A stretch of 63,263 bases of DNA, the filler included, from Dugesia japonica (Eukaryota): assembly GCA_001938525.1 (NCBI GenBank). It is 6 parts of 6 records of this genome, joined end to end, with 100 filler letters (N's around TTAATTAATTAA, not from the genome) between each part and the next. Parts side by side here need not be neighbours in the genome. Positions count along the whole stretch, not along the records: positions 9,096 to 22,917 come from MQRL01540673.1; 5 more parts are not named here. One strand, 5' to 3'. The translations under genes and the position numbers were made by a program. This document shows positions 1 to 45,948 of the stretch, in pieces; positions within the stretch are counted from its first letter, which is position 1, and every line of letters begins with the position of its first letter. The notes below the pieces were generated by a model. The model was not told the origin of the DNA, did no database searches, and was given only the letters and a program-made list of their open reading frames with translations.

Positions 1-509
1 GTCCATTATGAGCTATTGGAACCTGGTCAAACAGTTGATTCTGTATTCTATTGTGATCAACTTGAAAGATTAAAGCAAGCGATGAAAAAAATCCGGCCAG
101 GTTTAGTTAACAGAAAAGGTGTCGTGTTCCATCACGACAACGCTCGACCACATACCTCTATAATGACTCGCAACAAATTGAAANNNNNNNNNNNNNNNNN
201 NNNNNNNNNNNNNNNNNNNNAGTCCAGACCTAGCACCGTCGGACTACCATTTGTTTTTGTCTCTGCAAAATTTTCTTAATGGAGTTACCATGGCCTCAAG
301 AGAGGACTGCGAAAGGTACCTGGTACAGTTCATCAACCAGAAATCTCAGAAATTCTACTGTGACGATATTATGATTTTACCAGATAAATGGCGAAAGGTG
401 ATCGAACCAAATGGAACATATTTAATTAAATAAAGTATATTTGTTATATGAAAACAAATTGTTTGTTTTTTACTTAAAAAACCGTGGAAACCTTTTAGAT
501 CACCTAATA
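1..509 (+). mobile_element. Mariner (DD34D) transposon, 3' part of transposase plus right TIR
   Basis: Translation shows HHDNARPH, then SPDLAPSDYHLF (agtccagacctagcaccgtcggactaccatttg at 221) and LPDKWRKVIE. A TIR-like end ggaaaccttttagatcacctaa is followed by TA. Confidence 0.92.
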
Positions 510-659: not shown

Positions 660-774
660 AACTTGATTTTTGAAGATCGCCGCCACCTTTACAAAGTTTC
701 ATGTGTCTGGCTTTATTTTTTTTAAGAGGGTTCTATGACATTTTTCACATGTAAATTTTATTGACTTGGTCATT
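660..774 (-). pseudogene. Small C2HC zinc-finger ORF of the virus-like element
   Basis: Minus strand reads MTKSIKFTCEKCHRTLLKK/NKARHMKLCKGGG with one frameshift in an A-run. The ATG directly follows the capsid stop (TAAAATG). Confidence 0.5.
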
Positions 775-2004
775 TTATTTATTTAAAAATTCAACACCTC
801 TCACATTTTCAACCATTGCAATTTTATTATTTGCTAATTTNNNNNNNNNNNNNNNNNNNNNNNNNNNNNNNNNNNNNNNNNNNNNNNNNNNNNNNNNNNN
901 NNNNNNNNNNNNNNNNNNNNNNNNAACATTATTTATATTTAATCTATCATCTTGAGCTGTTACATCAAAACAGAAAATTGGATATAGTTCACCAAATTCT
1001 TGAAGAGATAATTGAGGTTCTATGAAAAAGTCTTGGCAACATTTTATATAATTTAAATAAGGATAAATCATTTCATTATTTGTCATATCAAATTTACATT
1101 CATTAATTGGATAGTAATTGTTATTTAACTGAATTTGCATAGTTTTTAAATAAAATGTTTTGGTTACATTTTTGCATCAACTTTTGTGGTTTTTGTTTTC
1201 TTTTGAATTAATAAATTATTATTATTTGAAAAAGAAATAACTTCATCTTTTATTACTATAAAAATATATCTTGGTTTATATGAAAGATTGCTAATTTTAT
1301 AAGATGAATAATTTCCAGAATCTAATGACATTTTACCTGTTATTCGATTTAGAAATCCAACTTTAATTGGTTTGTCTGTTGAGATTCTTTCTAAAAGCAT
1401 TAATTCCATTTTAGGTGTTAATCTACATTCTGGGATGTGTAATTCTAATGTTAGCAATTTTATTTTTGGTGTGCCTTCCCCTTTAAATAAAAGTTTATCT
1501 TCTAATTGTCGATTGCAACAAAATTCTATCATTGTATTAAAATTTTGTATGAATCCAAATAAAATTCTTAATGGAAAATACCCTTCAAATTTTTTACTTT
1601 TGTATAATTTTTTTCTTCGGTCTTCATCTAAAACCCATCCTGATAATGGTCCATATATTTGTCTATGAAATAAAATTTAAAATTGTTGATATTGTACCAG
1701 GATCGTTAAAAATTTCTACATCTGGTGCTCCAAGTCTTAATCTCATTGTTTTAAATAAAGACGGAAAAAAATTATTTTCCAAGACTGCAGTTTTATCGGC
1801 TTCATTTTCTGTTTCTATTTTAAAATATAACATTGCATTACAAATGTCTAATGGATTGGTGGATTGTAAAGATTGAAAAAATATATCTCCTCCACCCATC
1901 ATATTATTTATTGAACCGGATGTTGGTGAAAACTTTAAAATATCATGTTTTAATAATACATGAGTAAAAATAATATTATTATCGAGATTTATTTTGGCTT
2001 CCAT
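775..2004 (-). pseudogene. Double-jelly-roll major capsid protein (Polinton/adintovirus/PLV-like), interrupted by stop/frameshifts
   Basis: ORFs 1663-2004, 1164-1532 and 775-1140 join into a ~400 aa protein with LENNFFPSLF..MRLRLG..PGTISTILN, FEGYFPLRILFGF, LELHIP, KPRYIF, QLNNNYYP and LYPIFCFDVTAQ. This matches the motif order of invertebrate DJR capsids. Confidence 0.8.
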
Positions 2005-2199
2005 TTTCTATAGTAATTTTTTAAAGATCTTCTAATAATTTTACCATCTCGTCTGCTCCTCTCCATTTTCTTTTACATTTACCATCACCATCAACAATTA
2101 GCATCACTATTCCAATTCACCCTACTATTCCCATTACAATTCACCCTAATATTCCTATTACTATCCCCAACCTCGTTAATAATAATTTTTTTAATAAGG

Positions 2200-2393
2200 G
2201 GGTTTTTTTCAACTCTATCTTCTAATGAAATAAATCTTCCATTTTAATCTCTTTCCATTAAAGTTTTTGTTGTTCTTTTATTGTAAGGAATTTTTAATTT
2301 AATTAAATATGTTTTTATTGTTTTTTCATTTAATGAATGAAGTTTAAAAAAATCTTTTATTGAATTTTTTTTAAAATTATAATTTTTCATCAT
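2200..2393 (-). pseudogene. Small HTH-like protein, copy 1 (..YLxxLxIPYNK..R.xNGRF family)
   Basis: MMKNYNFKKNSIKDFFKLHSLNEKTIKTYLIKLKIPYNKRTTKTLMERD*NGRF. Homologous to 17887-18207 and 15052-15340. Confidence 0.6.
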
Positions 2394-2937
2394 TGTGTGT
2401 AAAATTGTGTCAGGAATTTTTTTATAATTTTTTAGCTGTTGCTCTAGTTATACTTGTACATGTTAGTGGGACTTTCACACGTTTAGATTTTTCTGTAATT
2501 TTTTCTTTCCTTTCTAAATTATTTTAAAAATTTATAATCTCCTTTTGTGAAAGGCGCTTTCTACCTTCTTTTAATGCAAATGAAAAACTCATGTCTTTAT
2601 ATTCCTTTATTATTTTTTGTTTTGTTTTAGAATTATTTATTAGATCTGCACACGCAACATCCATCTTTTGTGAAATAAAAATTGCTGCTAATGATTTAAA
2701 CGCATTTTTATCTTTTTCTATTATTTTGTTTTCATTTTCATCTACTTTTGTTTACATATTTCTTTTAAATAACCTAAATTTTCTTGTATTATATTTTTTG
2801 TTAATTTATTTTTTCTATATTCTTTAATTTTATCAAAATTATTTTCTTCAATTAAATTATTAATTATATCTAATAAAACATTTAAATCTATTTCTTTTTC
2901 TCGCATCATTTTCTAAACAAAAACATCAGAGAAGATC

Positions 2938-3764: not shown

Positions 3765-4015
3765 TTCTCATTTTTCATAAAAAATGAAATTTTTCATTTT
3801 TCATAGTTTATAAAAAATCCCACATTTTCATTTTTCAAAAAAAATTGGAAATCGGAAAATTTTCATTTTTCATAAAAAATCAAAAATCGGAAAATTTTCA
3901 TTTTTCATAAAAAATCGAAAATCGGAAAATTTTCATTTTTCATGGTTTATAAAAAATCACGCATTTTCATTTTTCATAAAAAATCGAAAATCGGAAAATT
4001 TTCATTTTTCATTTT
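3765..4015. repeat. Subterminal tandem repeat, ~35 bp unit aatcggaaaattttcatttttcataaaaaatc(a/g)aa
   Basis: Several adjacent near-identical copies just inside an AGTAG terminus at 4064. Confidence 0.85.
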
Positions 4016-4029
4016 TTTTACCTTTTTAC

Positions 4030-4064
4030 CTTAGGTCGCTTATCCCCGGTTATATCCATCTACT
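4030..4064 (-). mobile_element. Polinton-type terminus (5'-AGTAGATGG...)
   Basis: Minus strand starts AGTAGATGGATATAACCGGGG, next to the tandem repeats and the capsid gene cluster. Confidence 0.5.
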
Positions 4065-7000
4065 GTTAGGGCATGTCACCATTTCACAAGTTTTACCCAA
4101 TATCTCATCTTTACTTTTACCAAAGAAAGCTGATGAAAAGGAAAGTAAATAACGCATAATGAGAAGATTATCTCTTGAGTTTATATTTATAAATTGGAAG
4201 CTTATTTTTGAGGGATTTCAATAAAAGAATTCTAAATTTGTTATGATGAAGATCAACATATTTTGTTGACTGAAATATTGATTACATTATTAGAAGAGTT
4301 GAAAACGTTCATTGTTGATTTTAAGGAGTTTTTGAATTCATGAAATATTTAATAAAAAATAAAGATAAAGATTTAATTTGTTTGTTAAAAAATACAACTT
4401 TGAATTCCTTAAAAAACAAATCATTTTTTGACAATCTTAATTTTATCAACTTTATATTTATTAAATCTGTAAAAAGCAATGGCAATTGCCTAATAAATAA
4501 AATTACTTTATATTCAAATAAAATTCTTCATTATTATAGAGATAAAAACATTTTTCTTTGAATATAAAATAATTTCTTTTCATTAAAAAATTTTTATACT
4601 TTTTCAATTTAAAAAATTAATAATTATAATTATAGTCATCTTATATTCAGTATAATCTCTTTAATCTTTGTTTAAATAATTTAGACTGAATAAACTCATT
4701 TTTCCCCATTTTTTTCTGATGATGAAGGTTGATTCATCGAAATATATAACAATAAATATTTATATTTATTCTTTACATTTAAATCTATTTTTTTATATTT
4801 AATACTTTTATTTAATATTTTATTTAAATATTTATTTTAAAAGGTTTATTTATTTATTTTAAAAGCAGTTGACAAAGAGAAATACAATATAAGTTTTGTA
4901 AGTTTCTAGATAAACTAAATCAATCTTAGTGGAAATTGTTCTCAAAACAAAACATTAAATTTATAAATTATTTTTTATAAAATAAGTTGATATTTTTAAC
5001 TAATTTAATAAAAGCAACTCTATTTGTCGAGAAAAAATTTAATTGAAATATCAACTTTTACTACCTGCTTACTTTTAATTAAAAAAAATTCTATTAATAA
5101 ATGAAATTGACTTAAAATCTTTCTTTTATTTATTTGTAAAAATTATATTCCATTAATATTTAGTTAATAATTTCCCTAATTAATTAATTTACTCAATTTT
5201 TTTCATTTATATTTAAAAATATTTTTTTTGATTAACCTCCATTCAGATTATTAAAAATATTCATGATTTGTTGACAGAATAACAGCGGTGTTTTCAAAAA
5301 AAAAATTACGAAATTTATTTATAAATTCCAAATTAATTTTTTATAAATTCAGGAAATTAAAATAAATTGAATTGCCTGTATTGTTCTTTAAATTTTCAAA
5401 GGAAATTCAATGAAATTAGCTCTAATGCTTGTAATGAAAATCATCTGATAAATATATATTATTGAATGAGTTCATAAACATTTTTATAACAGTAAAATGT
5501 TGAAAGTGATTGCTAAACAATATTTTAAATAAATAATATTTTAAATAAACAATATTTTAAATAAACAATGTTTTACATAAACAATTTTTAAATTTTCAAA
5601 TATTAACAAACCAATATGAAAAATATTTTGTAGAAAGTATAAATTTTTATCATATTATTTATTTATTAAACATTGAGAAAATAAATTACGCTAAAATTTA
5701 CTTGTCAAAATGTAAAATTTGTAATGAATTAATTGTAGTGCTATTAATAGTTTGTCTTGATCGTCATAGTTATACAAACATTCGTAGATCTAAACTGAGA
5801 ATGCACCAGCATTCAATAAATAAAGCTCGAAAAATATCATAAAGAAAATAAATGTATAATAAATATAGTTTTAAAATTTTGTGTGTGGAGAGACGACGTC
5901 ATCTTTTTGTTTAAATGTATCAAAATTAGTGATTCATGTTTAAATGAAGGGATTTTATGATTTTTGTTTGAATTCAGTTGAATTAATGACTTTTTGTTAA
6001 TTGATGTTTACGATTTCTGGGTTAAACTAAAAACCTTAACCGTTTTTAAGGTTTTCATGAGTTTGCTTATTTTTGTTTAAGTTAACTAAAGGTTTTAATT
6101 TTTTAAAGTGAATTTTCCACGGGCAATATTAACAATAGATGCATCCAGGCAATATTAATACAATAAGCAATAACATACAAAAAGCAAATCAAAACACGAA
6201 ATTTATTGACGATAATAACAGTCATTTCATTATAGACTCATAGTCATTTCAATTTGGATCTTCATTGAATATCGAATCTTAATGAAAATTAATAATTTCA
6301 AATAACAAATAAATTTATTACCTTACATTGATTGGACTGAATCAGAGCCTTATTTATTACAAGTCAAAATTTAATATGTGTTGTCGGTTATAAAGAAGTC
6401 AAAATAGAGTTTCTAAAATATATGTTATATCAATATAACATCATCGGCTTCTATATATATTGTTTTAGAATCCATCAGTCTTGGAGATATCTAAGAAAAT
6501 ATATTATGGGACTAAAACAAATAAATCAACGTACCTGACATGCACTCATACAATCAAACATAATAAATTTATACGAGCGTTGAGAGATGATTGTGTAATC
6601 ATCTCACAATGTCCATATGGAATGGTAGAGTATTTATTTATCCATTCTATTTTATCGTCATTGTTACCTTTGTTGTTCTAAAACTATCCAATTGAAATCA
6701 TTATAATGTGTTCAATTTTTGTGTCATGAAATACAATTTTAGTGTAATGGATATTGAATATTAAATTTTGATTTTCTATTAATTTTTAATGTTTGGTTTA
6801 GAATCCAGTGTGATGGATTATAATGTTAACATTCTGACTATTAGATATTAAGTGCTGACTGTTAATTCTTATATTTCATTAAAATAAATTAATAGGTTCA
6901 ATCAAATTAAATTGTGGTTTTAAATATATTCAAATTTTCGATGATTGTCTTCTTCAGAAATATGATGACTTTTTGATGGATTTAATAGATAGTAGAACAT

Positions 7001-10624: not shown

Positions 10625-11600
10625 CTAGACGATTAAACTACACTTGTCAATGAAATTATAACCATCTATATTTTCTCCAGGTTTGGTAATCAAAATGGTT
10701 TTATAATCCCTCCAGATATCCGGAGTGCAACCAGTTTCGTAGATCTTGGAGAATAGGAAGTAAAGAATACTAGCAAGTGGGTCTATTTTTTCAAGAACTT
10801 TGTAGTTGATTTTATCTTGTCCAGGAGCAGAGGAATTGGAGGTATCTTTGAGGACATCAAGGATTTGAGTCTCGGAAAGAATAGCAAATAACAACAACTA
10901 CGAATTCTCTATCTCCATCAAGACCCCCAAAGAGAATCTAAACGTATAGCAAACTAACTACAGGAAAACTTTGTGCCCAATGCGACAAAGAAATGCGACT
11001 GGCGGAACACTTTGCAAAGCTATTTAGCGTCCCGCCTGGCTGCCGAAGAACAATAGTGGATGAGAATGGATAACGGACATCCTTACCTGACACCGTTTGT
11101 GATGGGAATACGGTCAATAACGTTGTTGTTTATGATGATATTAGTGTAGTTTTAATGGTAGAGATTCTTAATTAAGTTAATGCCAAAATTATCCATATCG
11201 TGTTTAGAGAGGATTTCAGTGATGTAGTGGATTGAAACATTTCCAAAAGCATCCGAGATGTCGAGGACGCAAAAATGGAGGTTGGTTTCATAATTTTTTG
11301 CCTTTTCGATAAGAGACAAAGCGAGGTTATGCTCTGTACAGATTTCAGCGGGGCTACAGCATTTTTGCTTTCTGTGTAGGAGATTACTTGAACGAAGCCA
11401 TTCATGAAACTGGTTGCATAAGCCGACTGTGAAGATTTTGTAAGTAGTGCTTAAAAGTGCAATTGGTCTCCAGTTTTCAATAAAATTATAACCATCTATA
11501 TTCTTTCCAGGTTTGGGAACCAAAATGGTTTTATAAATCCTCCAGATATCCTGAGTGTAACCAGTTTCGAAGATCTCGGAGAATAGGAAGTAAAGAAAAC
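10625..11600 (-). mobile_element. Non-LTR retrotransposon RT fragments (RLE-type, R2/R4/NeSL-like), rearranged
   Basis: SAPGQDKI, NWRPIALLSTTYKIF, QK...CTEHN, LDISDAFGNV and GVR*GCPLS. The segment ~10645-10770 is duplicated at ~11475-11600. Confidence 0.85.
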
Positions 11601-12229
11601 CAAAAAATGGTGTAATTTTCTATATTGACAAAACTGTATGAAAAAAGACTTCTCAAAAGCTTGCTTACAGTTTTAATTTTAATTCACTATAAAACTTACG
11701 AAACAACAACTTAGTACTCGCTCTTATTGTTACATGGCATCAACTCGCAGTCTCTATTTACCCAAAGTGATTACTGAATGATAACACAAACATCCATTTT
11801 TCGATTTTTAAAAGAACGTTAATTGTTTTCACTAGGGCGGTTGCCTCGCTCTAACGCCGAGCCTGGGTGGAAAAGTAGTTCTACAGTACTATTACATACG
11901 TGAAATTAATTGCACATTAAATAATTTGGATTCATTAATCATATTTTATCGTACCTGATAAAAATCCACATATTTTTATATTAGTTTTTTTTAAAAAAAT
12001 TTTTCTAGTTAAAGCATAATTTAACAAAGACCGGTGAACTTTTTCGGACGAGTAGCGCAAATGTACTTTAAAATAATAGTGGAAGACTAATAATTGTGAG
12101 CGTGTGATAGATTAATGAAGGGGAACCTTTAAAATGATCCAGCAACAAGTTCAACTTATTTAACATTTCTCAATGTGAATTGGGAAAATTTTTGCAGTGT
12201 AGTTTGCAAGTGAATAACCCCATGGAAGT

Positions 12230-12620: not shown

Positions 12621-13574
12621 AAGCGCAACTGATGTAAATTGACCAGTCCCGACATGTCCAAGAAGATTTGTCATAGTTTGATCCATGGGCGTATAAATCA
12701 AACATGTTAATTACTTTTTAATTGTCGTTTATAAGCGTGTTGTAGAAAAATATGCCACAACTCATCAACCGTGTTATACGAGGTTTTGGTGTATATATAT
12801 TGAAAATTCGAGCTGACTTCAACTAACTAAATGCGTTGTTGTTATTTTACACACTTTATTATTATATCTTTCTTGGAAAAAGCAGGTAAACAGACTCGAT
12901 GCCGACAAGAGCTGTAGCTATTGTTACGTACAACCAAACAATGTCAAACTGCTCTTCGAAACCTGAATCTTTCTAATAGATCGTTGCAAATACAAACACT
13001 TGTAAGAGGAAAAGATTTCTATTTTTTTTAGGAATGCATTCGCAATCATTTCGTTCTTAGCTATCGAGAAGACGATTTTGGTTTTTTCGTTACTTTCGTG
13101 AACTGATAAGTGTTTATAAACTATTGAAAAGTTATATTTTTGTGACAAAATCTTCGTTTCGAGAAATTCTAAGTTTTTTGCATATTATCTAATTCGCAAA
13201 TTTGAAAATGTGAAGATGGCAGGGTCTATTGAGAACCGGCAATGTGGAGAGGCCTCGTAAGTAAAATAGCATAGGGCCTACCATTATCTAAATCCGAAAC
13301 TGATTGCACGACAAATTGAATAATAATTTGAACTTTATTGTGGCTGTCCTTTAATTATGTCAACAAAATTTGGAGTTGAAGAAGTTTGACAATTATTGAC
13401 ATAATTAATCAACAGTCCCTTATAAAGTTTAAGTAGAAATATCTAGATTAAATAAAGTTTATAAACATGTAACATAATATCAATTAATACTGAGATAATT
13501 AAAAATTTTTCTATCTAGCAAGGCAATCAATTTTCATGAAACTTTTAATTAATAATTTATAATATAAAACTTAC

Positions 13575-14264
13575 ACTTTTATGCAAATCCATGATATCCT
13601 CATCGATTATTTCGATAATTTCATCAAAATATTTTGTATAAAGAGCTAACTAAATAAATAACTGAATTTATAACTGAAGCACATTTTTATATACTTGAAC
13701 TAAATTATTATGAATTGGAGTTAGTTCCTTATTGTCTTTTTGAAATTTATTTAAACCAGCAATAATAGTTTGAATGCCTTTTAATGGCAATGGACATTGA
13801 GGTATTTTTTTGCAAATTTCTTGAATCATATTTAAAACTAATAATGAACAATAATTTTTTAACATTTTAAATCTCCTTACAAAATTTATAATATGTCCTG
13901 ATTTGATTTTTACAACATCCAGATATAAATTCATTAATTCTATCTAATAAATCATTGAATTCGGGTAATTCTGGTGAATACTGACCTATCTTGTGAAATC
14001 TATGCAAAAACATAATAAAGAATTTACTGATAAATTTATTACAGGACATTAGCATGGACTATGGAATAATCTTTAACATCTAAATCCTGTAAAAGAATAT
14101 CTAAATTTAATAAATGAGTACGAAATAACTCAGAAGTTTCATCAAGCAATGAAGCTATTTCTGAAACATCTAAATTTATTATTAGAAATTTCACAATTTT
14201 AAAATATTATAATCATACTCCCTCTTTGCTTAAAAGCATTGCACAGATTATTAATGGCAAGCAT
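13575..14264 (-). CDS. COPS3: COP9 signalosome subunit 3, 5' exons (14264-14219, 14169-14043, 13999-13881, 13837-13695, 13649-13575)
   Basis: Spliced translation LLNLDILLQDLDVKDYSIVHANVL..PLKGIQTIIAGLNKFQKDNKELTPIHNNLVQLALYTKYF..DEDIMDL matches the CSN3 N-terminus (LDVQEHSL; PLRGI..LTSIHADLCQLCL). GT-AG introns of 43-49 bp keep the frame. Confidence 0.85.
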
Positions 14265-14687
14265 ATTTTCAAAATATTTTTGAAAAAGATAATTAATAAT
14301 AAGATTAAACAAAAGTCCAATTTCTAATACTAAAATGAATAATAAAATATATTTTTCAAATAATAAATGTTCATTATCAATATAGAAAATAATTATTTTA
14401 AATATTTTCATTGTTAAAAAATTGATATAGTTTTGAAATAATTAATTTTGCAGTATAATAAAAAATTATCTTTAGAAATTTAAATTTAAAATTTCTAAAA
14501 ATTTCATTTTGCTATAAATTCAAAATGCTTTCCTGGCATTCATGTTAAAAAGTAATATAATTTCATTTTGTCTAATTATTAATAGTGGCCATATGATTAA
14601 GAGAATACATAGTGTACATGCTTGTTGTTACATTCTGTATTGTATTATTGACTAGGCAGGGTTAGTCAAAATGTGGTTTAGTTGGAT

Positions 14688-14862
14688 AGTAGTGTATACA
14701 TTGAGGAATTATGGTCCCCACCCTCCAGTAGGCCATAAGATAAAACAATCCCATCGAAAATAAGAGGGATGTCATGTAACTGTCAATTGAAAATTGTCCG
14801 GGATTGTCTGATTCTTTAACTTTGGGAGGTGAAGACCATAATTCCCCAATGTATACACTACT
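14688..14862. repeat. 175 bp foldback with AGTAGT termini
   Basis: agtagtgtatacattgaggaattatggtc ... gaccataattccccaatgtatacactact, with an inner IR acaatccc/gggattgt. Confidence 0.85.
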
Positions 14863-15051
14863 CAGAGCTTTATTGAAAACATCATGATTGGTTGATCGTT
14901 GATCGTTGATCTTTTATAAATAAAAATATGTTGGATTAATACTAAATATTTAATATTAGTTATAGATAAAAGGTTTTATTAGTTATTGGTTAATGCTTAG
15001 TAGTTATTGCTTATTGCGTAATGTTTTATTGCTGATATCCATATGGAAGTG

Positions 15052-15340
15052 TTATATATTGAAAGTATCTTTAACAATTGATAGAAAATCATCACTAGAC
15101 ATTTTAGTATAATTAATAAATTTATGTTTATGATTATGTTTATGTTTAGATTTATGTTGAATAGGTTCTTTCTTTTGAATAGGTTTAACTTCAATAGGAT
15201 CTTCAAATCGTTTTATTAAAGAGGAAAATGTTCCATCAACACTTCTATTTTTCTTGTTGTATGGAATATTATACATGTTTAAATATTTTCTTCTTGATTT
15301 TTCATTTAAATTGTATTTCTAGAAAAAACTAGATACATAT
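15052..15340 (-). pseudogene. Small HTH-like protein, copy 3 (5' end interrupted by a solo LTR)
   Basis: VSSFSRKYNLNEKSRRKYLNMYNIPYNKKNRSVDGTF..VKPIQKKEPI, homologous to 17887-18207. Confidence 0.55.
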
Positions 15341-15345
15341 TAATT

Positions 15346-17696
15346 TGTTGGGGTTCCATCTAAGTGGGTTAAAATTAATTTTTGTTTAGGATGGTCTGGT
15401 CTAGTAAAACCCTGCAAAGAATTTGATCTAGTATCACGAAAACTAGATTTTCGGAATAGAGCCGTTGACTCTCAACCCGTAGTTAGTGTACAGACTCGCA
15501 TTCCTTTGGTTTGGGTTCTGATTTCATTATACTCGCTTTAGGCGGTGAAGCGTGCTTCATCCTTATTGTAAATGATGACCACGACAGTATTTCGAATCAT
15601 ATCATTATATCTGGTGGTTATTACCCTCAGGAATATCATCTTAGCAAGCTATCAAAAAGGTATTACGAGAGTTATGTCTATTATTTTTATTAAGATTTAA
15701 TATCGAGGATTATGAAAAAGTGAGTTTATTATCATCATCCTAAGGTTCTGAATTCATAGTTAGAAATCATCAGTATTCATCATGGTAATTAGTTAAGCCT
15801 TACTAACATAAGTTAATATTGATCATTAATCATTATTGACTTACACCCCTACAAGGGTCAGTTATTCAATTATTGCTAAAAACAGGAACTACCCCTATGA
15901 AATAGTCAGAGTTTATTAGAGAAACTCATTATGATTATCAATGTTTATCAATNATTAAGGATCAATTTTATAATTCTTGTGGTCTAGCATTATTACCTAA
16001 TGAATTATTATTAGGAGAAACTACTTATTATTGTCATCATTAACTATTATTATCATACTTATCCCAATTACTATTTTTACGGTTTTAACAGTTTTTACAT
16101 TACTAATTAAGAATTGCTTATTCCTGTCTATCTTAAGAGAAAAGTAAATTTCATATTATAATTATAATTTATCATTAATAAATCATTATAAACGTAAACC
16201 ATTAATTGAACAATTACTATGATAAATGATTTATGGGAAATTTTAATTAATATCCTTAATCAATGGAAATTTATTTACCATTACGTAATGTTTGAATAAT
16301 TACCATTCTATTACAATTACCAAAAGAAATTCGATTACATAAAGTTTTTATTATTATTACTAAAATTCTTTTAAACATTAAATTGTAGAATACATAAATT
16401 ACTAAAGACTTAAGTAAGCCATCGATAGTCCGGATTAAGCACTTGATTGATTTGTAGTTGCTATCGCGATTTTATTGTATATATCCAACTAACGACTGAT
16501 GTTCTTTATTCTATGCATTCGTGTGCAACTATTCATCCACTGTGCACTTGTACGTAACTATTTTATTTTTGTGCATTCGTGCGTAACTATTTATCTTCTG
16601 ATTAATTCAATCGATCATTGATGCATCACTTCGGTCTGTCAATACTCACACACCTGTGAACTACTAGTCACCTTATGATTATTCTTAATATTTATCGCTA
16701 TTTGACATGCAAACTGTTCCCTTTCATTTTCCCACCTGTGCTGTTTTTACCAAGTCGGAAATCGTTGTTGAAAAATAAAAATTAGATAATTTCTTACCGC
16801 TTCAAAATCGATAATTCCAATTGTTAATATTTGGTAGAAATTTTATGATTATTGATGTCTAAAATTAAGCGGTATTTATACTAAATTTCAGCACGCCTTC
16901 TATCGTCTCATTGGCCAATGCACATGCTCTGATTTTAATTGTGTTTTCCTTGGACAAGATACTCAAATTCTGTCACCTGACTTCTTATTATTAGACAAAC
17001 CTTTGGAATTCCAAAATTAGTGGAATTTGATTGGTTAATTTTAAAATCCTTACAACTTCTTTCTTGATCTAGCCACGGTCTTCTGGTTTAAATTTTTGAA
17101 ATCTCTGATTTTTTTCTTAACTATAACTTTCTTTATTACTAATTTTTGTCTTAACTTTAAGCTTTTATTTTTCGATATTTCTGTATAAATTAAATTTCTT
17201 TTTTATAATAAATTATTTTAATTCATATAATTTATTTTATTAATAAAATAAATAATTTATTTTCTTTTCTTCTTAATTTACTAATTGGATTGTCGATCTT
17301 CATTTTTAAATTGAATATAAATTTTATTCCGCCGTTTTCTTTTAATAATTAATTCGTTAAATTATTTTTCTTTTTCTTCGATTATTATTTTCATTTGGTT
17401 TTCTTTATTTCACCTAATGAATTGATCGCTTGGTTATTGTTTGTAATTTCTTTGTTTTCTCTATCTGTTGATAGTTTTTTTCGTTTCTTTTCTTTTCATT
17501 TACTAAATTATTCCTTTTTTTCTAGCATTTTTTAGTTATGGCACAGGTTTTAATTTTCTTCTCATTTCTTCTCCAACTAATTTTTCCCGACCATTTATCA
17601 GCTAGATTCTTTCTTTCTCTTTTTCATGTACTTTTCTCAACTTCTGTCTTACTCATCGCCATTATTATTTCTTATGCTAGGTGTTTTACCCTAACA
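15346..17696 (-). mobile_element. Long solo-LTR-like element (~2.35 kb)
   Basis: Ends TGTTGGGG...CCCTAACA, flanks AATT/GATT. The minus strand has CCAAT and TATAAATA at ~16870-16920. Both ends and the promoter block are homologous to 59812-61427. Confidence 0.7.
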
Positions 17697-17886
17697 GATT
17701 GATAAAATCATAAGAAGATAAAATTTGATAACATTTAAAATCTGTGGTATTCATTTTGTTGCATTAATAATTTGACCTTGTTACCATACCTATAATTACC
17801 TTATTTTACAGTACAAATAAAATTTTCTATTTCTTTGAAAAAATCTTCATTTGCTGTGAAGGAATTATTTTCAGAAATAGGTAATG

Positions 17887-18207
17887 TTACATCTTTATGT
17901 TAATGTTTTTAGGTTTAGTTAGACGTTTAATTGGTTTCTCTTGAGTAGGTTTAACTTGAGTAGATCTTATTAAAAAAAATGTAAATCTTCCATTAAAAGT
18001 ACGTTTTTGTTTAATAGTTCTTGTTTGTTTATTATATGGAATATTAAGTAGATTTAAATATTTTGTTATTATTTTAACACATATTCCATGTTTTCTAGAA
18101 AAACTAATTAGAGAATTATTAATAAAATTATAACTCTTGAGAAGCTCATGAAACTCTTCTTCCTTTAAAAAATAAATTAAAAGACATTTAAATAATAAAT
18201 ATTTCAT
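17887..18207 (-). CDS. Small HTH-like protein, copy 2
   Basis: LLKSYNFINNSLISFSRKHGICVKIITKYLNLLNIPYNKQTRTIKQKRTFNGRF. Divergent from the capsid copy 2 cluster. Confidence 0.6.
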   Translation of the reverse strand: MKYLLFKCLLIYFLKEEEFHELLKSYNFINNSLISFSRKHGICVKIITKYLNLLNIPYNKQTRTIKQKRTFNGRFTFFLIRSTQVKPTQEKPIKRLTKPKNINIKM

Positions 18208-18934
18208 GTTCCGTGTTCCGTTTTCCGTATTCAGTTTACAGCTCAGTTTTTTTGTTCGGTTTTCAGTTCTGCGTATAGTTTACTATATACAATTCGGTTT
18301 TTAGATTACAGTTTCTTATATTTTGTCTAGAGAAAATGGCAAGAAAAGAATTAACATTAAACACGTTATACAATTCAATAAAAAGATTAGGGAAAACTTG
18401 AACAGTTTGGTATGAAAGAAATTCAAGGATTTACTAAATGTGAAATAACAGCTAATAAATACATTTCAATTTTAAATATTATGAGTGAACAAATGGTCAA
18501 GTATCAAAGTATTGTGAAATTGATTGTTATAAACGTATGTTTAGTTTTTTAAACAATGAAAATAAAAACAATGCTGTAATTATTAAAGAGTTATATGAAC
18601 AATTACAAAAAGAACGAGATGAACAATATAAACTAAGACAACATACAATTAAAACGAAAAAGAAAATATTGATGAAGTAATGTCCCTAAATATAACCTTT
18701 TATATACCAGATGATGAAGATGATTTATTAACAGAAAGTGAATATAAAAATATAGCTAATATTATATTGAAAAATAATAAATTACAAAACAGGAAGAACA
18801 ACCTTTTAAGATGTTCCCAAAAAATACGAAGATAAAGTAAAATGTATTAGCGCAGCAAAAAAAGATTATATAGAATTAAAAGTTAAATAAAGTAAATCTA
18901 CAATATAGGGCTCGTCATAATAATCCAATAGAAA

Positions 18935-19480
18935 ATGGAGTTAGAAGCGAATAGTAAATATCTTCACTTTCAAAAAAAAGATCTTTTGAAAATTAGTCCT
19001 ACTAGTGGTTCGATGGTAAATTTATATAAATCAAGTAAAATACAATTCCAATCATTATAATCTACTAATCCATTGGATATAGGAAAAAGTATGTTGTATA
19101 TCAAGAGTGAAATAAAATATACTACAAAACTAAATAAAGATGTAACCCTTGCAAATGATTGGTTTCCTAGTTGGTTTAGTAGCATGAGATTAAAACTTGT
19201 ATCTACAACAATTGAAAGTATAGAGAACCCTGGAACAGTTTCTACAATGTTGAATTTAATTTTACATCATGAATCTTCAAAAGCATTTACAAATGCATAT
19301 GGATAGATTCCTGATCATGATTTAGGAACAGTTGATGATAAAAACTTCAATAAAAGAAAGGAACTTTATTCACAAAGATATGAAGGTTATTATTCTCTTA
19401 GAAATTTGTTTGGTTTTTTACAGAATTATAATAAATTACTATTTAATCTTTTATTCAGTTGGATTTTAATATAAATAAAC
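18935..19480 (+). pseudogene. Double-jelly-roll major capsid protein copy 2, N-terminal half
   Basis: MELEANSKYLHFQKKDLLKISPTSGSM..FQSL*STNPLDIGKSMLY..LANDWFPSWFSSMRLKL..NPGTVSTMLN..YEGYYSLRNLFGF aligns with the 775-2004 capsid. Truncated by the Gypsy insertion. Confidence 0.8.
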
Positions 19481-19485
19481 GAGAT

Positions 19486-22400
19486 TGTAAGGATTCAAAA
19501 TTTAAAATTGCAATTTAAAGTTTGAAGAAAAAAATGTTAAAAAAGATTTCAATAAATTTTTAAAAATATTAAAAAACTTTGTTTAAATATTCAGCCTTTA
19601 AAAAACAGTTTTTTTAGATTTGAAGATTTGAAATTTCATAAATAAATCTTTTTTAAATTTAATGGACTTTTCAGAAACTTTATCAGTAATTAATATGGCG
19701 ACCAACGCTTCAATTGACTTCATTTGAGAAGCTCCACACCCTGGTATTTACCGGCATGTTGAAGATATTGAACAGTTTATTAATGGTTCCACCAAATACT
19801 TCGAATGTATTGGTGTAAAGAAAAAGGATAAAAACTTCTTGATGATTGGCTTAATTGATCGAGAATTAAGACAAAAATATAAATGCCAAGATGAATTATT
19901 AGATTTTGAGGACCGACAGAGAAAAACGTTCCACAAAAAGACTTCTCTCATACAAGACTTGGAGAAAGCTTTAAAATACAAGAGAACGGATGAACGCGTT
20001 TATGTGTACAAAAAATGATTTTAACACTGGTTGATAAAATCTTTTCTCACAAACTAGACAAAGAATAGATGACAAAAGAATTAATATTCAATAGATGCCA
20101 CGATAAAAGGATGCAAATAAAAATTAAAGAAAGCAAATTAGCCAACTCGGAAGAGATATTTGAAACAATGAAAACAAATGATGAACTAAAGTAGGAACTA
20201 AAAGAAACGGACAATATAAATACGGTAGAGAGTTACACCAATGCAGTAAAAGAAAGCATGATAAAAGAACGTTTCTCAATAGTTAACCGAACTCAAAATG
20301 AAACTAAAAAAGAAATTACATGTTGGTCATGTCTGAAGATAGGTCATATCAGCAGAGGTTGACCCGAAAAGAAAGGAATGTGTTACGCATGCGGATCAGA
20401 GAATCATATAAGAAGAAATTGTGACAAAATTAGATATTCAAGATGTGAAAAAATGGACATCATACAGAACAATGTTATACTAATTTGGAAAAAAGAGGTA
20501 AATAGACTAATGATAGAAGACTTCAGAATAACAAAGAAAGAAACGAATCAGCATTATACAGCCGAAGAGAGGGAACAAACAAAAAATAGGACGATAATAA
20601 CAGATTCCCGAAACAAAAAAGGATGACATCAACCAATATTGAATTCAGGGAAAGAGACGGCAATAGAGATACAAATGCAATGGTAGAAGAAGATAAGGAA
20701 TACATTATGAGGAGATAATATTTATTATTACGATGAAGAGACAAACAGATATAGAGAAGAGACCCCAAACAGACAAGCTCTATCTAAAATCAAGATGATT
20801 GGAGCAATGAAATTAAAAACAATTCAGATCGCGATATACTTATGTAAAGTAAAAGTAGTTTAATTAATAGTATAAAACATGAAAGTAAAGAGGAAAGAGT
20901 AGACAGAAAAGTTTATGCGTTTTTAAGAAAAATTACAGATATATGTATAATACAGATATCAAGACAATGTAAGAAACAAGAAATGATGATAACAGAATAA
21001 TGGTATTAGAAGAGAATAAACAAGTACAAACAAATTATGATAGAACGCAAGGTAGGCCCAGTTTAGAAGTTAGAATTCAAGGAAGATATATGGACTGCCT
21101 TTTTGACACAGGTGCAAAAATAAACGTGATGAATCTAAATATATTTAGAAGTCTTACAAATGTGGAGCTGATAGAAGCTGATGACGTGTTAAAATGTGCA
21201 AATAATAGCAGTATAAACCTTGTGGGCGAGATATATATAGAAGTGAAAATCGGAGACAGTAAAAAAATAGTTCATTTCACCGTAGTGGAAGAAATGAGTC
21301 CGAATCTTGTTGGAGGAATAGACATGCCATGCCAGTTTGGATACCGTTTAAAGAAAGAAACAAAGGATGGTGAAAATGAACAGTAGATCTGTAACATAGA
21401 CGCAAGGTTTGGTCGCAAAATTGAGGATTTTGAAAGAGAACAGAGAGCTTTAAGAATTTTGATGAAAAAACGAGACCAGAAACTAGAAAAAGGTAATAGA
21501 ACAACATCGAGGAGTATTCATGGCAGATAACTGGTATGTCGGATGCACAATAGAGGTAGAACACAAAATAGTGAAAAAGGATAACACAATAAATACGAAG
21601 CTTTGAAGACAACCAATGAATCAAGAAGAAAAAATGGATACGCCACAAAAAATTTAGCGGACGCTAATATTATAAAAAAATGTAATTCGCAGTGGAATAC
21701 ACCACTGAGTTGCGTCTGAAGAAAGAACGAAAGGATGTGAGACTTTGCTTGAACTTCAGGAAACTGAACGCAGTTACGGAACGACATACCTTACCTATGT
21801 TAAACAAGGAAGAAATGTTAAACAATTTGTATGGATCTAAATATTTCAGTACCATAGACTTGGGAAACACGTATTAACAGGTACAGTTAAAAAAAGAATC
21901 ACAAGAAAAAACAGCCTTTTCGACAAAAATGATAAACATTGCTTCACAAAAATGCCAGTCGGCATAGCAGCAGGTACATTTCAAGAGCTTATGACGAAAG
22001 GATTGAACGGTCTAGATAGAACAATGGTGTATATGGATGACATAATAGTATTCTCAGAACTACTAAAGAGCATTATTTAACTCTGGGTCAGGTATTAGAG
22101 CTGATTCAAAATGCAGGGCTGTGAGTGAATCCAAAAACATGTCACCTATTACGCAAAAAAGTAAAGGTTCTTGGTTACATAATAGATAAAGAAGTAATTC
22201 AAATAGATCCAATGAAAATCGTAGCAATCAAGAATTTTGAGAAACCCAAATGTGTAAAGAGCCTGAGAAGCTTCCTTAAAATATGCAATTATTACAGAAG
22301 ATTCATCAACAATTATTTAAAGAAATCAAGAAGCCTAGAAAAATTATGTGGAAGCAACAACATCAAGTTAATATGGTCAGAAGGATTTGAGAAAGATTTA

Positions 22401-22853
22401 GCAGAAATGAAACAAGCACTGAAAGAAGCACCTATTCTAGAATTCCTGGATATAAAGAAAACATTTACTTTAGATACTGACGCCAGCTTCGACGCAATAG
22501 GAGTGATCCTATCACAAAATGATGATGAAGGAAGAGAAAAAGCTATTGCATACTGTTCGCATGCAATGAAATCACATGAGAATGGTTACTGTATCACACG
22601 GAAGGAATTACTAGCAATCTACTACTTCTGCAATCACTTTATACATTATTTATATTGAAAAAAATTCATAATGAGGACAGATCACAAAAGCATAGTATTC
22701 ATGAAAAAGACGAAAAAACTGATAACACCTCAGTTTCAGACATGGATGAATTACCTTAGCAGCTTATACAAAAAAATCATATATCGACAAAGTAAGAAAC
22801 ACGCTGATGCAGATATGCTTTCAAGAATAAAATACGGAACGTGCACTCTGTGA
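19486..22853 (+). mobile_element. Ty3/Gypsy LTR retrotransposon (gag, protease, RT, RNase H), decayed
   Basis: PBS-like tggcgacc at ~19696, CCHC knuckles (CYACGSENHIRRNC), protease LFDTGA, RT CLNFRKLN / IDLG / YMDDI, RNase H LDTDAS, ELLAI, TDHK, ADMLSR. Confidence 0.93.
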
Positions 22854-23017
22854 GGTAAATTAAATAGACAGATTGATTCGGGGAATTTTTTTGTGGCAAA
22901 TCAATAAAAGAATAATANNNNNNNNNNNNNNNNNNNNNNNNNNNNNNNNNNNNNNNNNNNNTTAATTAATTAANNNNNNNNNNNNNNNNNNNNNNNNNNN
23001 NNNNNNNNNNNNNNNNN

Positions 23018-26074: not shown

Positions 26075-26643
26075 AACTCATTACTCAAACGTAATTATGT
26101 AGAACACTGGAGGTTATTAAAAATATATATAAAATTAGGTACCAAATTTATACAGGATAATATTTTTAAAGAATACATAGATAGCAATACAAAATTAAGA
26201 TCTCAAAGCCAATCGAAATTGGACAAAAATTATTATAAGCTGTTGAACAACAGTCTTTATGTAAAGTCTGTTGAAAATTTGAAGAAACGTCCGAATCTCC
26301 GGCTCTGTAAATCAGCTGAAAAGATGATGGCCTACATCTCAAAGCCTGAATTCAATAAAACTATTAACATAGATACTAACCTATTAGCAGTGTTACTCAA
26401 TAAAGACATTGTTTGTCTGGATCGTCGAAGTTATATCGGTCAAAGAGTGAAAATACTTCTAAGAAAGCTAAGGGTATGACATTAAAAGGTACCGACATAA
26501 ACCACTAGTCGTATCTTGATCGTGATAATAATAATCTAAAGGTCCCAATTAACCAATTTAGAATTTGCAGTAAAGATCATCAACTATTTAGCATTAATGG
26601 TCTTAAAGTAGCTTTGATTAACACAGACGATAAGCGTGTATAG
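26075..26643 (+). pseudogene. Protein-primed family B DNA polymerase (Polinton/adintovirus pPolB), C-terminal fragment
   Basis: FKEYIDSNTKLR..YYKLLNNSLYVKSVENLKKR (the KLxNNxxYGK..EN motif B), ..SYIG, and C-terminal KVALINTDDKR at ~26605-26640. Confidence 0.85.
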
Positions 26644-27559: not shown

Positions 27560-29517
<1,958 letters not shown>

Positions 29518-36702: not shown

Positions 36703-39700
36703 TCATTTAAGGAAATCTGATTTGAGTAAAGTTTCAGCATCTTGGCGTTTTATTGGATCTGCTTGAATCATCAAATCAAGAAATGCTTTCAAGTCATTTG
36801 AAATATGTGATGGATAATCCAATTTCTTCTCATCTCTAATTTTGAGTACAACTGTATACCTATTGTAGTCAGCCAAAGGCGGTTTACCTGTAAATTACCA
36901 TAAATAAATATACGTTTTTAAAGTAATAATTTTATTAAGAAATTTCAAGTGGGAAGAGTTAAAAATGTGTACAAATAAAAATGGTATACAATTTAACCAA
37001 ATATTTTTGTAAAAACTATCCGTCTTAATTGGAAAAATCTGTTAATCTAGAAATGCAACTTTACTAAAATAAATATTATATGATTGATATATTTACAAAA
37101 TAGAAAATAGTACATTTAATATAAAAGCTTTGATCAAAAGTTTTGTTTTTTTATTGATATTGGATAACGATTCGATATTTCAACCTCTGCTTCGTCACGA
37201 ATTAAGTTTTCTTTTAGGAAAAAAAGTCAATTCCTGACGAAGACAAGGTCGAAATATCGAACTGTTATCCAATATCAATATTAAAAACCAAAATTTTGAT
37301 AAAAGCTTTTATATTAAATGAATTCTATAAAACGATCAATGGTTATGTCCAATAATTAATCTCGTAATAATTGCAATTGTAAAATAGAAAATAGTTGTTT
37401 AAATATTATAAAATATGTATTTTTAAAATTTTGTTACAAACACTGTTAGAAGAATTAATCAATTGGTTAAGTGACAAAAAAAGTTTTTCAAAACCTTTTC
37501 AATTGATGTAAATATTTCTTTCTAATTTTAATCAACTTTTTACGCAAAGATGAACAAACGATTAGATTTAGCGTAACGTTCCAAACTGCTTTTTAAATCG
37601 TTAGAAGAAGAAACATATCTAGAAATTTAATAAATAATTTTAATTAAATTAAATTAATTAAACAACTAGTGGTTTAAGACAAAATTAACAAAAATATATC
37701 ATATCAAGTGAACTAATCCGTAGTTAATATGGTAACAAAATTAATTATTTTTTTATAATTACTATTATTGTGAGAATAATTGTTGGACTTAACCATTGAT
37801 CGCATTTGAGATTTCATTTAAATAAGATAAAGCTTTGATCAAAACAAAATTTATTTATAAAACAGTTCAAATTTTCGACAATAGCCTTCTTTAGGAACCT
37901 GTTGGCTTCTTGAGATATTCAATACAATAAATCTTTGTTACTAAATTCTTTAAATTTTATCATGTTACATTCCAATTTTACTTTTTCATTTCTTATCTTT
38001 CATAAAAAAACAATTAATCACGATTTTCACCATGAAGGCAGTTTTTTACGGTTAAAGTTCATGAGACATTCCTATGTTACTTTTTAATTTCTTATTCAAC
38101 CATGTATTTTGTTTTTCAATAAAATGAAAAGTGGGCTGATGCGCCATTATCTACCTACTCTCACGTTGTTCTTTTTTCAGCATGAAGGAAGCCTTTTTCG
38201 TTAATTGTTCTTTAGACAATGTATAGACACTTTTTAATTCTAAGGTCAATGATTTCATTTTCAAGTTAAAAAATTGAAACCTACGCGCCTAAAAATAAAA
38301 TTCTTAAAATTTTAGATTTCTAAAAACCAACCATTTTCGTTGAACACATTGAATATATGAAATGTAGAGAATTAAATTCTATATCTTTTATATATAGGTT
38401 ATGTTGCAGCATTTTTTAAAATAAATTTTTAGTTAGACAGTTTTCAAATCCTCAAAAAGAAATATGTATGCCACCAACACACAAACTGAGAATTTGAAGA
38501 GGACAGAAGTTCTTAGAATTAAATTTTGCATCTATATGTTAAAAATATAACTTTCTACGACCTTTATCTTATACGGCTATGGGTTGGTGAGGGGAGGGCT
38601 GATCTCCGAAACGAAGCACTTTTTGGTAGTAGTACTTTAGGTCATGTATAGGTATTTTATGATTTTAAGAAGAATAGAATCGGTTTCGAATAAAAAAAAT
38701 TAAAATTTACAAATTTTAAATGTAACGAATTTCTCACACCTTGACGTACCACAAACTTTTCAACATAATAATCAGGTTCGTCATGACATTACGATTCTAA
38801 CGATACAAATTTTGACTAAATTAAAACAACAAATGACTATTAAAAAATCATTAAAAATAATTGAAATAAAAAAAATAAAAGGTAAAAATAATTTTAAAAA
38901 TAAAGTCAAAAACATTCAGCTCAAAAATCTTCAGCCTAGAATTTTTTAACCCAGGACGTGGTGGGAAGTAGGAGGTGGGCTGATGCGCCACTATCTGTCT
39001 ACTTACATGTAGAGAGATTTAATCGCACATTAATTTAAAAATATAATATATCTAAATATCTAAAATATCTAAAAAACTTTACTCTTTAATAAAAAAATTT
39101 CTGAGTTAATTTAAAAATAAAAATTAAAATCCATAATTAAAATGAACCAATAAAATTTCAATTAAATCTAAAGAATTGAGTAACAATGATCTATTGCATT
39201 GAAAAGATATTTTATTGAACAGATACTTTGTACATGTTGATAGTAAGTCTTGGGTAAATGTTTTACCGAAACTCATTCATAGTTATAATCATTCTAGTCA
39301 TAAGGAACTAAATGGAACAAGACCAGTTGATGTAAGTACAAACAATAAAATAAAAAATATGATTATCGCTCAAACAGTTAAAAGCAAATAAAAAAACCAA
39401 AGTATAAAGTTGGTGATCATCTTAGAATCTCGCAAATATCAGTTTCACCATTTATCAAGAATTTCAATAGTAAGTGGAGTGATGAAGCGTTTCAAATAAC
39501 GAAAATAAACATGAAACGAAATTCGGTCATGTATGTTATTAAAGATTATGAAGATAATATCGTGCAAAGAAAATTCTATAAGCAAGAATTACAACTCATT
39601 CCACCAATAGAGATATATAGAATAGAAACAATAATCAAATCAAAAGAAACAGGAAAGAATAAACAATTATGTGTAAAGTGGCAAGATACGATAAAACAAA

Positions 39701-45559: not shown

Positions 45560-45948
45560 CCTCTCAATAGATTGTTTATTTTTGTAAGTTATCTGGATTT
45601 CCATCTTTAAGCATTATCTTGATTGCAGCTTCGATTTTGATATATTATTTTTATTTTATAGGTACAGCTCCTGCAAATCTACTAAATACATCAATACACG
45701 TTAAAATATACTTGTAACCTTCATTAATTCTTGAATATGGGATCATTTTCATCAAACCCATTTGCCAAAAATCATCAATCCCATGTTTTATACGGTCTTT
45801 TTGGGAATCTTTTCAACATTGGCTTGTGTAGAATGTACGCTAATTGGTTCGCTAAACCCTCTTTTGATTCGCTTTTTGTTGCTTTCCATAGCTTTTCCAC
45901 TCCTTTAAACCCTACTGGATGTTTTGGGTCTGTCCATATTGTTTCCAT
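45560..45948 (-). pseudogene. Polinton/Maverick integrase N-terminal part
   Basis: METIWTDPKHPVGFKGVEKLWK..YILHKP..FPKRPY..GYKYILTCIDVFSRFAGAVPIK. Confidence 0.88.

What the first reader, a model, noticed from the sequence alone, without database searches (positions are those of the whole stretch)
14688..19485. Second, divergent copy of the same capsid-virus family with rearranged gene order
The capsid at 18935 shares SPTSGS, FQSL.STNPLDI, FPS.F..MRL and PGT.ST.LN with capsid 1 but is clearly divergent. The same HTH-like family is linked, here duplicated (15052, 17887) and transcribed away from the capsid rather than in tandem. The block is bounded by an AGTAGT foldback and has been hit by a solo LTR and a Gypsy element. 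Two divergent relatives on separate contigs imply a diverse, multi-copy endogenous virus family.
Basis: partly seen in the sequence, partly recalled or inferred. Interest (0 to 1): 0.75.

Follow-up and report, generated by a model that had tools for sequence, protein, structure and literature searches.

The report
Decayed Maverick virus-like transposon fragment
This is a dead, broken piece of a Maverick (Polinton), a common virus-like jumping element in animal genomes; its capsid gene is related to, but separate from, another capsid relic nearby, and only a small orphan gene and a folded-back end are unusual.

Summary
18935-19474 is the first 179 codons of a double-jelly-roll major capsid gene. 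It has two internal stops and is cut by a Gypsy LTR at 19486. It is 46% identical to capsid 1, and the two group together in a tree (96/90). Synonymous divergence exceeds non-synonymous (0.59 vs 0.35), so they are separate lineages rather than copies. Their nearest relatives with flanking DNA carry pPolB, rve integrase, A32 ATPase and PLA2, so the family is Maverick/Polinton, a known kind. Gene order already varies among those relatives (2 of 4 long loci head-to-head). One correction: the solo LTR (15346-17696) sits inside small-ORF copy A, whose start lies at 17697-17754, so the two copies were adjacent. The small ORF has no homolog in any search; a helix-turn-helix fold is plausible but weakly supported. 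Contigs from three DNA runs show the capsid core and small ORF are multi-copy. One RNA run shows the block silent. The AGTAGT foldback is real, sits at the host/element boundary and is single-copy. It has no 6-bp target duplication. It is about an even bet that it is a terminal palindrome of this element.

The parts
13573..14260 (-). Host gene, COP9 signalosome subunit 3-like exons with short introns; the host flank of the block (limits approximate)
   Evidence: PF22788 E 3e-5, 24.1 bits, below the 27.2 cut-off; the CSN3 name is partly recalled likeness; strand-biased RNA depth 12-17 over 13482-14204
14688..14862 (.). 175-bp foldback, AGTAGT...ACTACT, 35-bp arms; candidate terminal palindrome of the element, or a separate miniature element
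   Evidence: depth 8-16 in three DNA runs against 18-21 for the host exon; one contig spans 14417-14904
15052..15345 (-). Small-ORF (HTH-like) copy A, 3' piece, two in-frame stops, cut off by the LTR
15346..17696 (.). Solo LTR, 2351 bp, TG...CA, 4-bp target duplication with one mismatch, inserted inside copy A
   Evidence: relatives at 60058-60543 and 61239-61428; summed depth about 390-50000 in its bins
17697..17754 (-). Small-ORF copy A, 5' piece, on the far side of the LTR
   Evidence: aligns to the start of copy B, score 38 against a shuffle maximum of 36 in 2000; a contig joint 15292->17703 skips the LTR
17887..18207 (-). Small-ORF (HTH-like) copy B, open frame of 106 codons
   Evidence: model with helices 16-25, 33-40, 44-53 at pLDDT about 85-87; no homolog found
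18336..18885 (+). Degraded, frameshifted coding-like stretch upstream of the capsid; unidentified
   Evidence: no credible Pfam hit; no match among 379 ORFs of 25 related loci; depth 34-57
18935..19474 (+). Major capsid protein 2 (double jelly roll, Maverick type), first 179 codons, stops at codons 42 and 124
19486..19695 (+). 5' LTR of the Gypsy element that truncates the capsid gene; primer-binding-like TGGCGACC at 19696
   Evidence: other copies read C at 19694, giving a CA end; LTR limits are inferred from these ends
19696..22917 (+). Degraded Gypsy gag-pol running to the contig end
   Evidence: zf-CCHC, aspartic protease, RVT_1, RT_RNaseH_2
730..2004 (-). Capsid 1 on another contig (comparison), broken by a frameshift near 1670, a stop and an N gap; 3' limit approximate
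   Evidence: (PF21738 E 0.03 on the last piece)
2183..2417 (-). Small-ORF copy upstream of capsid 1, same strand (comparison)

Best explanation
The block is a dead fragment of a Maverick/Polinton (polintovirus, adintovirus-type element) integrated just upstream of a host COP9-subunit-like gene in an AT-rich animal-type genome. In life such an element is copied by its protein-primed polymerase, inserted by its rve integrase and probably packaged by its capsid, minor capsid, ATPase and protease (established knowledge; none of these enzymes lies in the block). This copy carried a lineage-specific accessory gene for a ~100-aa three-helix, probably DNA-binding protein, present twice in tandem and pointing away from the capsid module. 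After integration it decayed: stops and frameshifts accumulated, an LTR element inserted into copy A and was reduced to a solo LTR, and a Gypsy element cut the capsid gene. Capsids 1 and 2 come from two related Maverick lineages that diverged while active and invaded separately. Shown: homologies, fold class of a relative, junctions, multi-copy depth, silence in one RNA run. Inferred: order of events, DNA-binding role, that the small ORF belongs to the element, and the nature of the foldback (about 0.5 terminal palindrome of this element, 0.35 unrelated TA-site miniature element, 0.15 separate mini-Maverick remnant).
For: 59 relatives of capsid 2 at E<=0.001; 22 of the 25 longer ones scanned hit PF21738 double jelly roll, 20 of 25 above the cut-off. 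The model of the top relative P0004 (pLDDT 88) matches PBCV-1 Vp54, Sputnik and mavirus capsids and an Adintovirus protein at rank 4. In a 48-row, 193-column tree both window capsids plus P0006 form a 96/90 clade inside a 99/93 clade with L001, L002, L003. Those loci encode pPolB (L001), rve integrase and PLA2 (L002, L003), A32 ATPase and a pX-like protein (L003). pS 0.59 vs pN 0.35 over 106 codons. Other Maverick-type pieces lie on three more contigs of the window: pPolB 26087-26440, integrase 39212-39594 and 45600-45782. A joint 17745->18346 in 3 of 3 DNA runs points to another locus with one small ORF head-to-head with the + strand stretch. RNA depth is 0-0.17 over 17579-19265 against 12-17 on the host exon. 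96% of vertebrate Maverick loci are degraded and (AGT)2//(ACT)2 is their commonest end motif (PMC8097293, passages).
Against: No polymerase, integrase, ATPase, protease or minor capsid is in the block or beside either capsid, so membership rests on the capsid clade. The small ORF was found in none of 25 capsid-bearing loci, though most are short (4 informative loci over 6 kb). Depth is uneven along the block (41, 181-250, 34-57, 237-345), which fits a patchwork as well as conserved cores, and the tool warns that it is no copy number. The two capsids are not exclusive sisters: P0006 falls between them, and the AU test only fails to reject a two-member clade (p 0.31). Copies A and B show pS = pN (0.29/0.29, 64 codons), so no sign of selection on the small ORF. 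The structure was predicted for a relative, not for the window's fragment. The RNA result is one oligo-dT run, about 25% read.
Confidence: 0.8

Rival explanations
1. Patchwork: the capsid fragment is Maverick-derived, but the small ORFs and the foldback belong to other mobile elements that collected in the same repeat-rich spot.
For: The small ORF is absent from 25 related loci. Depth differs about 5-fold between copy B and the next 700 bp. The foldback is single-copy and the only target duplication that fits it is TA. The region took two other insertions.
Against: The small ORF lies within 200-750 bp of a capsid in 2 of 2 capsid loci of the window and nowhere else in 63 kb apart from copy A. 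The joint 17745->18346 repeats the linkage to the + strand stretch in 3 of 3 runs. The small ORF has no ends or transposase of its own.
Confidence: 0.12
2. The fragment comes from a non-Maverick member of the polinton-like supergroup (no pPolB or no rve integrase) that may have used a terminal hairpin to prime replication.
For: No replication or integration gene in the block. Palindromes inside terminal repeats are reported in virophages and a PLV subtype, preferentially in elements with non-pPolB replication genes (10.64898/2026.07.28.741278, passages).
Against: The nearest capsids with context sit with pPolB, rve integrase and PLA2. The window's own pPolB and integrase pieces match those same loci.
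Confidence: 0.05
3. The host has co-opted small-ORF copy B as a gene, which would explain its open frame.
For: Copy B is open for 106 codons while its neighbours are broken.
Against: RNA depth 0-0.17 in the one run laid; pS = pN against copy A; a 106-codon open frame can survive by chance.
Confidence: 0.03

Closest known systems
Mavericks/Polintons (polintoviruses), major capsid protein PY (PMC4028283 passages; PMC8097293 passages)
   Same: Double-jelly-roll capsid of family PF21738; relatives carry pPolB, rve integrase and ATPase; (AGT)2/(ACT)2 end motif; degraded, multi-copy state.
   Different: Only a capsid fragment and accessory ORFs remain. The AGTAGT and ACTACT motifs are 175 bp apart rather than at the two ends of a 13-25 kb element. 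No 6-bp duplication flanks the foldback.
Adintoviruses with Mayetiola-class (Alpha) virion module (PMC8502044, sections 3.1 and 3.2 read)
   Same: The paper calls PLA2-like genes with a pX domain characteristic of this module; the nearest loci L002 and L003 encode PLA2, and L003 a pX-like protein.
   Different: No named adintovirus capsid was in my tree, so the class is inferred from neighbours' genes. In L003 PLA2 is fused to the integrase and pX is separate. The small HTH-like ORF was not matched to any described gene.
Halocafeteria seosinensis endogenous virophages and PLV subtype 4 with terminal palindromes (10.64898/2026.07.28.741278, passages)
   Same: A palindrome at the extreme end of an integrated DJR-capsid element.
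   Different: There: 52-nt palindromes next to verified target duplications in complete protist elements, mostly non-pPolB. Here: a 175-bp foldback with a ~105-bp loop at one end of a fragment, with the other end missing.
Planarian Mavericks/Polintons (10.64898/2025.12.11.693146 and PMC8532177, passages)
   Same: AT-rich animal genomes with Maverick expansion, Gypsy-dominated LTR content and piRNA silencing of Polintons.
   Different: The host of this window was not identified; the parallel is only an analogy from composition.

Membership tests
Maverick/Polinton | [quoted passage not shown] | tested here: met
   Relatives carry PF21738 (22 of 25); fold of the top relative matches Vp54 and virophage capsids; tree placement. 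The window fragment itself has no Pfam hit.
Maverick/Polinton | Protein-primed DNA polymerase B in the same element | tested here: inconclusive
   Not in the block, which is cut by the Gypsy and the contig end. Present in relatives L001 and L014 and as a piece on another contig, 26087-26440.
Maverick/Polinton | rve integrase in the same element | tested here: inconclusive
   Not in the block. Present in L002, L003, L015 and as pieces at 39212-39594 and 45600-45782.
Maverick/Polinton | Packaging ATPase, cysteine protease and minor capsid | tested here: inconclusive
   tblastn of 379 locus ORFs against the window found none of them. ATPase is in L003, L012, L014; the protease call for L001 is weak (E 0.046); the minor-capsid label for the conserved ~255-aa ORF is recalled, with no Pfam hit.
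Maverick/Polinton | 5'-(AGT)2//(ACT)2-3' end motif | tested here: met
   AGTAGT at 14688 and ACTACT ending at 14862; motif per PMC8097293. Whether it is this element's end is unproven.
Maverick/Polinton | Paired terminal inverted repeats around the whole element with a 6-bp target duplication | not testable with these tools
   The far end lies beyond the contig and no genome is held.
Stand-alone mini-Maverick (foldback only) | 6-bp target duplication around the 175-bp unit | tested here: not met
   Flanks are TTGGAT and CAGAGC; no 4-9 bp duplication at any of 10 end positions.
MITE (foldback only) | Short inverted ends with a target duplication | tested here: inconclusive
   Only a TA duplication fits, and the arms run 2 matching bases beyond it.
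MITE (foldback only) | High copy number | tested here: not met
   Depth 13.8, 16.1, 8.2 in three DNA runs at 80% likeness against 18-21 for a host exon. Copies sharing only the 35-bp arms could be missed.
Helix-turn-helix protein (small ORF) | Three-helix HTH fold or HTH profile match | tested here: inconclusive
   No Pfam HTH hit. Atlas HTH clusters score 0.81-0.83, a lead only. The model has three confident helices; best matches are DNA-binding domains at Z 5.2 (rmsd 3.2, 53 aligned) and 5.1 (rmsd 2.4, 50), below the level the tool treats as meaningful.
Solo LTR | TG...CA ends, 4-6 bp target duplication, repetitive, non-coding | tested here: met
Gypsy retrotransposon | LTR, primer-binding site, gag-protease-RT-RNase H order | tested here: met
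   integrase and 3' LTR lie beyond the contig end

The most novel reading that the evidence does not exclude
An animal Maverick lineage whose ends carry a self-complementary 175-bp palindrome (a hairpin-forming terminus, so far seen by me only in the report on protist virophages and one PLV subtype) and which encodes a lineage-specific HTH protein that binds these ends or the divergent promoter between it and the capsid module.
Probability: 0.1. Interest if true: 0.55.

Novelty: new member of a known kind. Interest (0 to 1): 0.22.

Why it matters
As it stands it adds one more decayed Maverick to a genome that is full of them: 5 of the 6 contigs in this window carry a piece. It shows at least two capsid lineages invaded this host. 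The capsid clade is known here only from unnamed environmental sequences, so an animal-type genome is a host hint for it. If the foldback proved to be a true terminal palindrome on pPolB-encoding animal Mavericks, it would bear on how these elements start replication and would give the orphan HTH-like family a testable role.

Tried and rejected
No whole genome is held, so genome-wide co-occurrence was not tested. The word-indexed search with capsid 2 against longer proteins found nothing among 405 candidates; the exhaustive search did. The capsid alignment found no relative in viral contigs (75 pattern hits, none confirmed). Small-ORF searches were blank: single protein, four-row alignment, viral contigs, Pfam, viral folds with no match at E<=0.001 (best: an entomopoxvirus protein, E 0.016). 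These blanks do not show absence. The 16-base foldback arm has 8 exact matches in viral contigs; by my rough estimate that is no more than chance, and I did not examine them as elements. No third copy lies in the window at 3 mismatches. Rfam found nothing in 14300-19750. No RNA holder was listed by the run index, which is no evidence on expression. Cluster look-ups of 20 relatives gave no informative names. Rejected for the foldback: CACTA, hAT and Harbinger identities, for lack of a fitting duplication (superfamily rules recalled). Rejected: 'copies A and B are two halves of one gene', since both contain the same core. Literature searches listed no paper on animal Mavericks with palindromic ends or with this small ORF; that library lacks most subscription papers and Repbase, and supplements were not read, so named planarian or other Polinton families may already include this one. 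Earlier findings by place and sequence: none.
Full report
Setting. The window is six contigs joined by spacers (N runs around 8996, 22918, 35530, 43909, 54038), mostly 20-30% GC. No genome is held. The finding lies on contig 2 (9096-22917) and capsid 1 on contig 1. Exons resembling COP9 signalosome subunit 3 (PF22788, E 3e-5, below cut-off) lie just left of the block and are transcribed. With the mariner and Gypsy debris this points to an AT-rich animal-type host (inference). The host was not identified.

Observation. Capsid 2 runs 179 codons with stops at codons 42 and 124. Its similarity to a full-length relative ends at 19468, 18 bases before the Gypsy 5' LTR at 19486. The three small ORFs are homologous (0 of 2000 shuffles in each pairing). 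The foldback is real.

What the capsid is. An exhaustive search gave 59 relatives at E<=0.001, 17 at 1e-10. I scanned 25 of the longer ones: 22 hit PF21738 and 20 pass its cut-off. A model of the best relative P0004 (26-row alignment, pLDDT 88) matches PBCV-1, Sputnik, mavirus and iridovirus capsids (E about 1e-13 to 1e-15), with an Adintovirus protein at rank 4 among viral models. A six-row alignment retrieved 25 metagenome loci from 406 pattern hits and none from viral contigs. Of 36 ORFs scanned from 7 of these loci, pPolB was found in L001, rve integrase in L002, L003 and L015, A32 ATPase in L003, L012 and L014, PLA2 in L002 and L003, and weak pX hits in L003 and L012. This is the Maverick/Polinton gene set (PMC4028283 passages; PMC6431247 passages). 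PLA2 with pX marks the Mayetiola-class module of adintoviruses (PMC8502044 sections 3.1-3.2).

Relation of the two capsids. I built a tree from the N-terminal region: 48 rows, 193 columns, LG+G4, capsid 1 represented only by its first unbroken piece; it includes 35 of the 59 search hits and 11 of the 25 loci. Both capsids and P0006 form a clade at 96/90, inside a 22-row clade at 99/93 with L001, L002 and L003. A two-member clade is not rejected (p 0.31) but not shown. They are 1.16 changes per site apart, about 60% identical in DNA, with pS 0.59 against pN 0.35 over 106 codons. They therefore diverged under selection as separate active lineages (inference). No named Polinton capsid was available for the tree.

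Gene order. In L001 and L003 the capsid is head-to-head with its upstream neighbour; in L012 and L014 the module runs in tandem. A different arrangement between two lineages is thus ordinary for this clade.

The small ORF. The solo LTR has matching TG...CA ends at 15346 and 17696 with AATT/GATT flanks. The 58 bases beyond it encode a piece that aligns with the start of copy B (the same piece is not significant against the contig-1 copy, 796 of 2000). One run has a contig joining 15292 to 17703 at depth 79 (1 of 3 DNA runs, 29 letters on the short side). So the LTR landed inside copy A, and A and B were neighbours. All three DNA runs have a contig joining 17745 to 18346 (depth 9-13, 35 letters on the short side, letters between unknown), which suggests another locus with a single small ORF head-to-head with the + strand stretch. 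No homolog was found outside the window. The model shows three confident helices whose best matches are DNA-binding domains at Z 5.2 and 5.1, and Atlas neighbours include HTH clusters at 0.81-0.83. HTH is a fair working label, not a result.

Copy number and expression. Contigs of three DNA runs and raw reads of one RNA run (4 of 24 listed) were laid at 80% likeness on 13000-20200. Summed depth was 18-21 on the host exon, 8-16 on the foldback, 41 on the end of copy A, 181-250 on copy B, 34-57 on 18302-19024 and 237-345 on 19025-19265. The tool warns this is no copy number and one DNA run may be the window's source, but conserved parts clearly have many relatives. RNA depth was 0-0.17 over 17579-19265 against 12-17 on the host exon. 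The other contigs of the window hold pPolB, integrase and pX-like pieces that match the same related loci, so 5 of 6 contigs carry Maverick-type debris.

The foldback. It begins AGTAGT and ends ACTACT, the commonest end motif of vertebrate Mavericks, which have 46-1447 bp terminal repeats and 6-bp duplications (PMC8097293 passages). It lies between the host gene and the last element ORF, 190 bp from the latter, and it is the only one of 18 listed foldback pairs in the window with that start. Against a free mini-element: no 6-bp duplication. Against an ordinary miniature transposon: single-copy depth, although a TA duplication fits. Against a family-wide terminal repeat: the same low depth. Palindromes inside terminal repeats are reported for protist virophages and one PLV subtype, with hairpin priming proposed and accidental annealing as the alternative (10.64898/2026.07.28.741278 passages). 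I put about 0.5 on a terminal palindrome of this element, 0.35 on an unrelated element and 0.15 on a mini-Maverick remnant. The far end is outside the contig, so this stays open.

Verdict. A degraded Maverick/Polinton fragment, hit by two retroelements, from a second lineage related to capsid 1. Degraded copies are the norm (96% in vertebrates), and Maverick expansion is reported in AT-rich flatworm genomes (10.64898/2025.12.11.693146 passages; an analogy only). New member of a known kind, interest 0.22. The residual interest is the orphan HTH-like family and the possible palindromic end (probability 0.1, interest 0.55 if true). Earlier findings returned concern other genomes and were not used.

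Noticed in passing
window 26087-26440 (+): Degraded protein-primed DNA polymerase B piece (PF03175 E 1e-7), 35% identical to the polymerase of L014: Maverick debris on a third contig.
   Followed up: partly
window 39212-39594 (+) and about 46150-45600 (-): Maverick-type integrase pieces: a C-terminal part on contig 4, and a pX-like motif followed by an integrase N-terminal part on contig 5.
   Followed up: partly
window about 3458, 2964 and 2068 (-): A short peptide module ending in a KWRGA-like motif recurs three times upstream of capsid 1; no match in the related loci.
   Followed up: partly
window 18208-18335: The gap between copy B and the + strand stretch is built of short TTCCG/TTCAG/TTCGG-type repeats; possible divergent promoter.
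   Followed up: no
window 30032 (+), 34292 (-), 61427 (-), about 23470 (-): Further ends of the same TGTTGGGG-type LTR family as the solo LTR.
   Followed up: partly
window 1-430, 3814-4149, 11155-11619, 27646-27924: Mariner transposase fragment, histone H2A C-terminal fragment, reverse transcriptase fragment and hAT dimerisation fragment.
   Followed up: no
window 37113-37320, 37314-37821, 42926-43212: Other long foldbacks, none beginning with AGTAGT.
   Followed up: no
L003:5191-6513 (-): A relative encodes a PLA2-like domain fused in one frame to the rve integrase; in L002 the two are adjacent ORFs.
   Followed up: no
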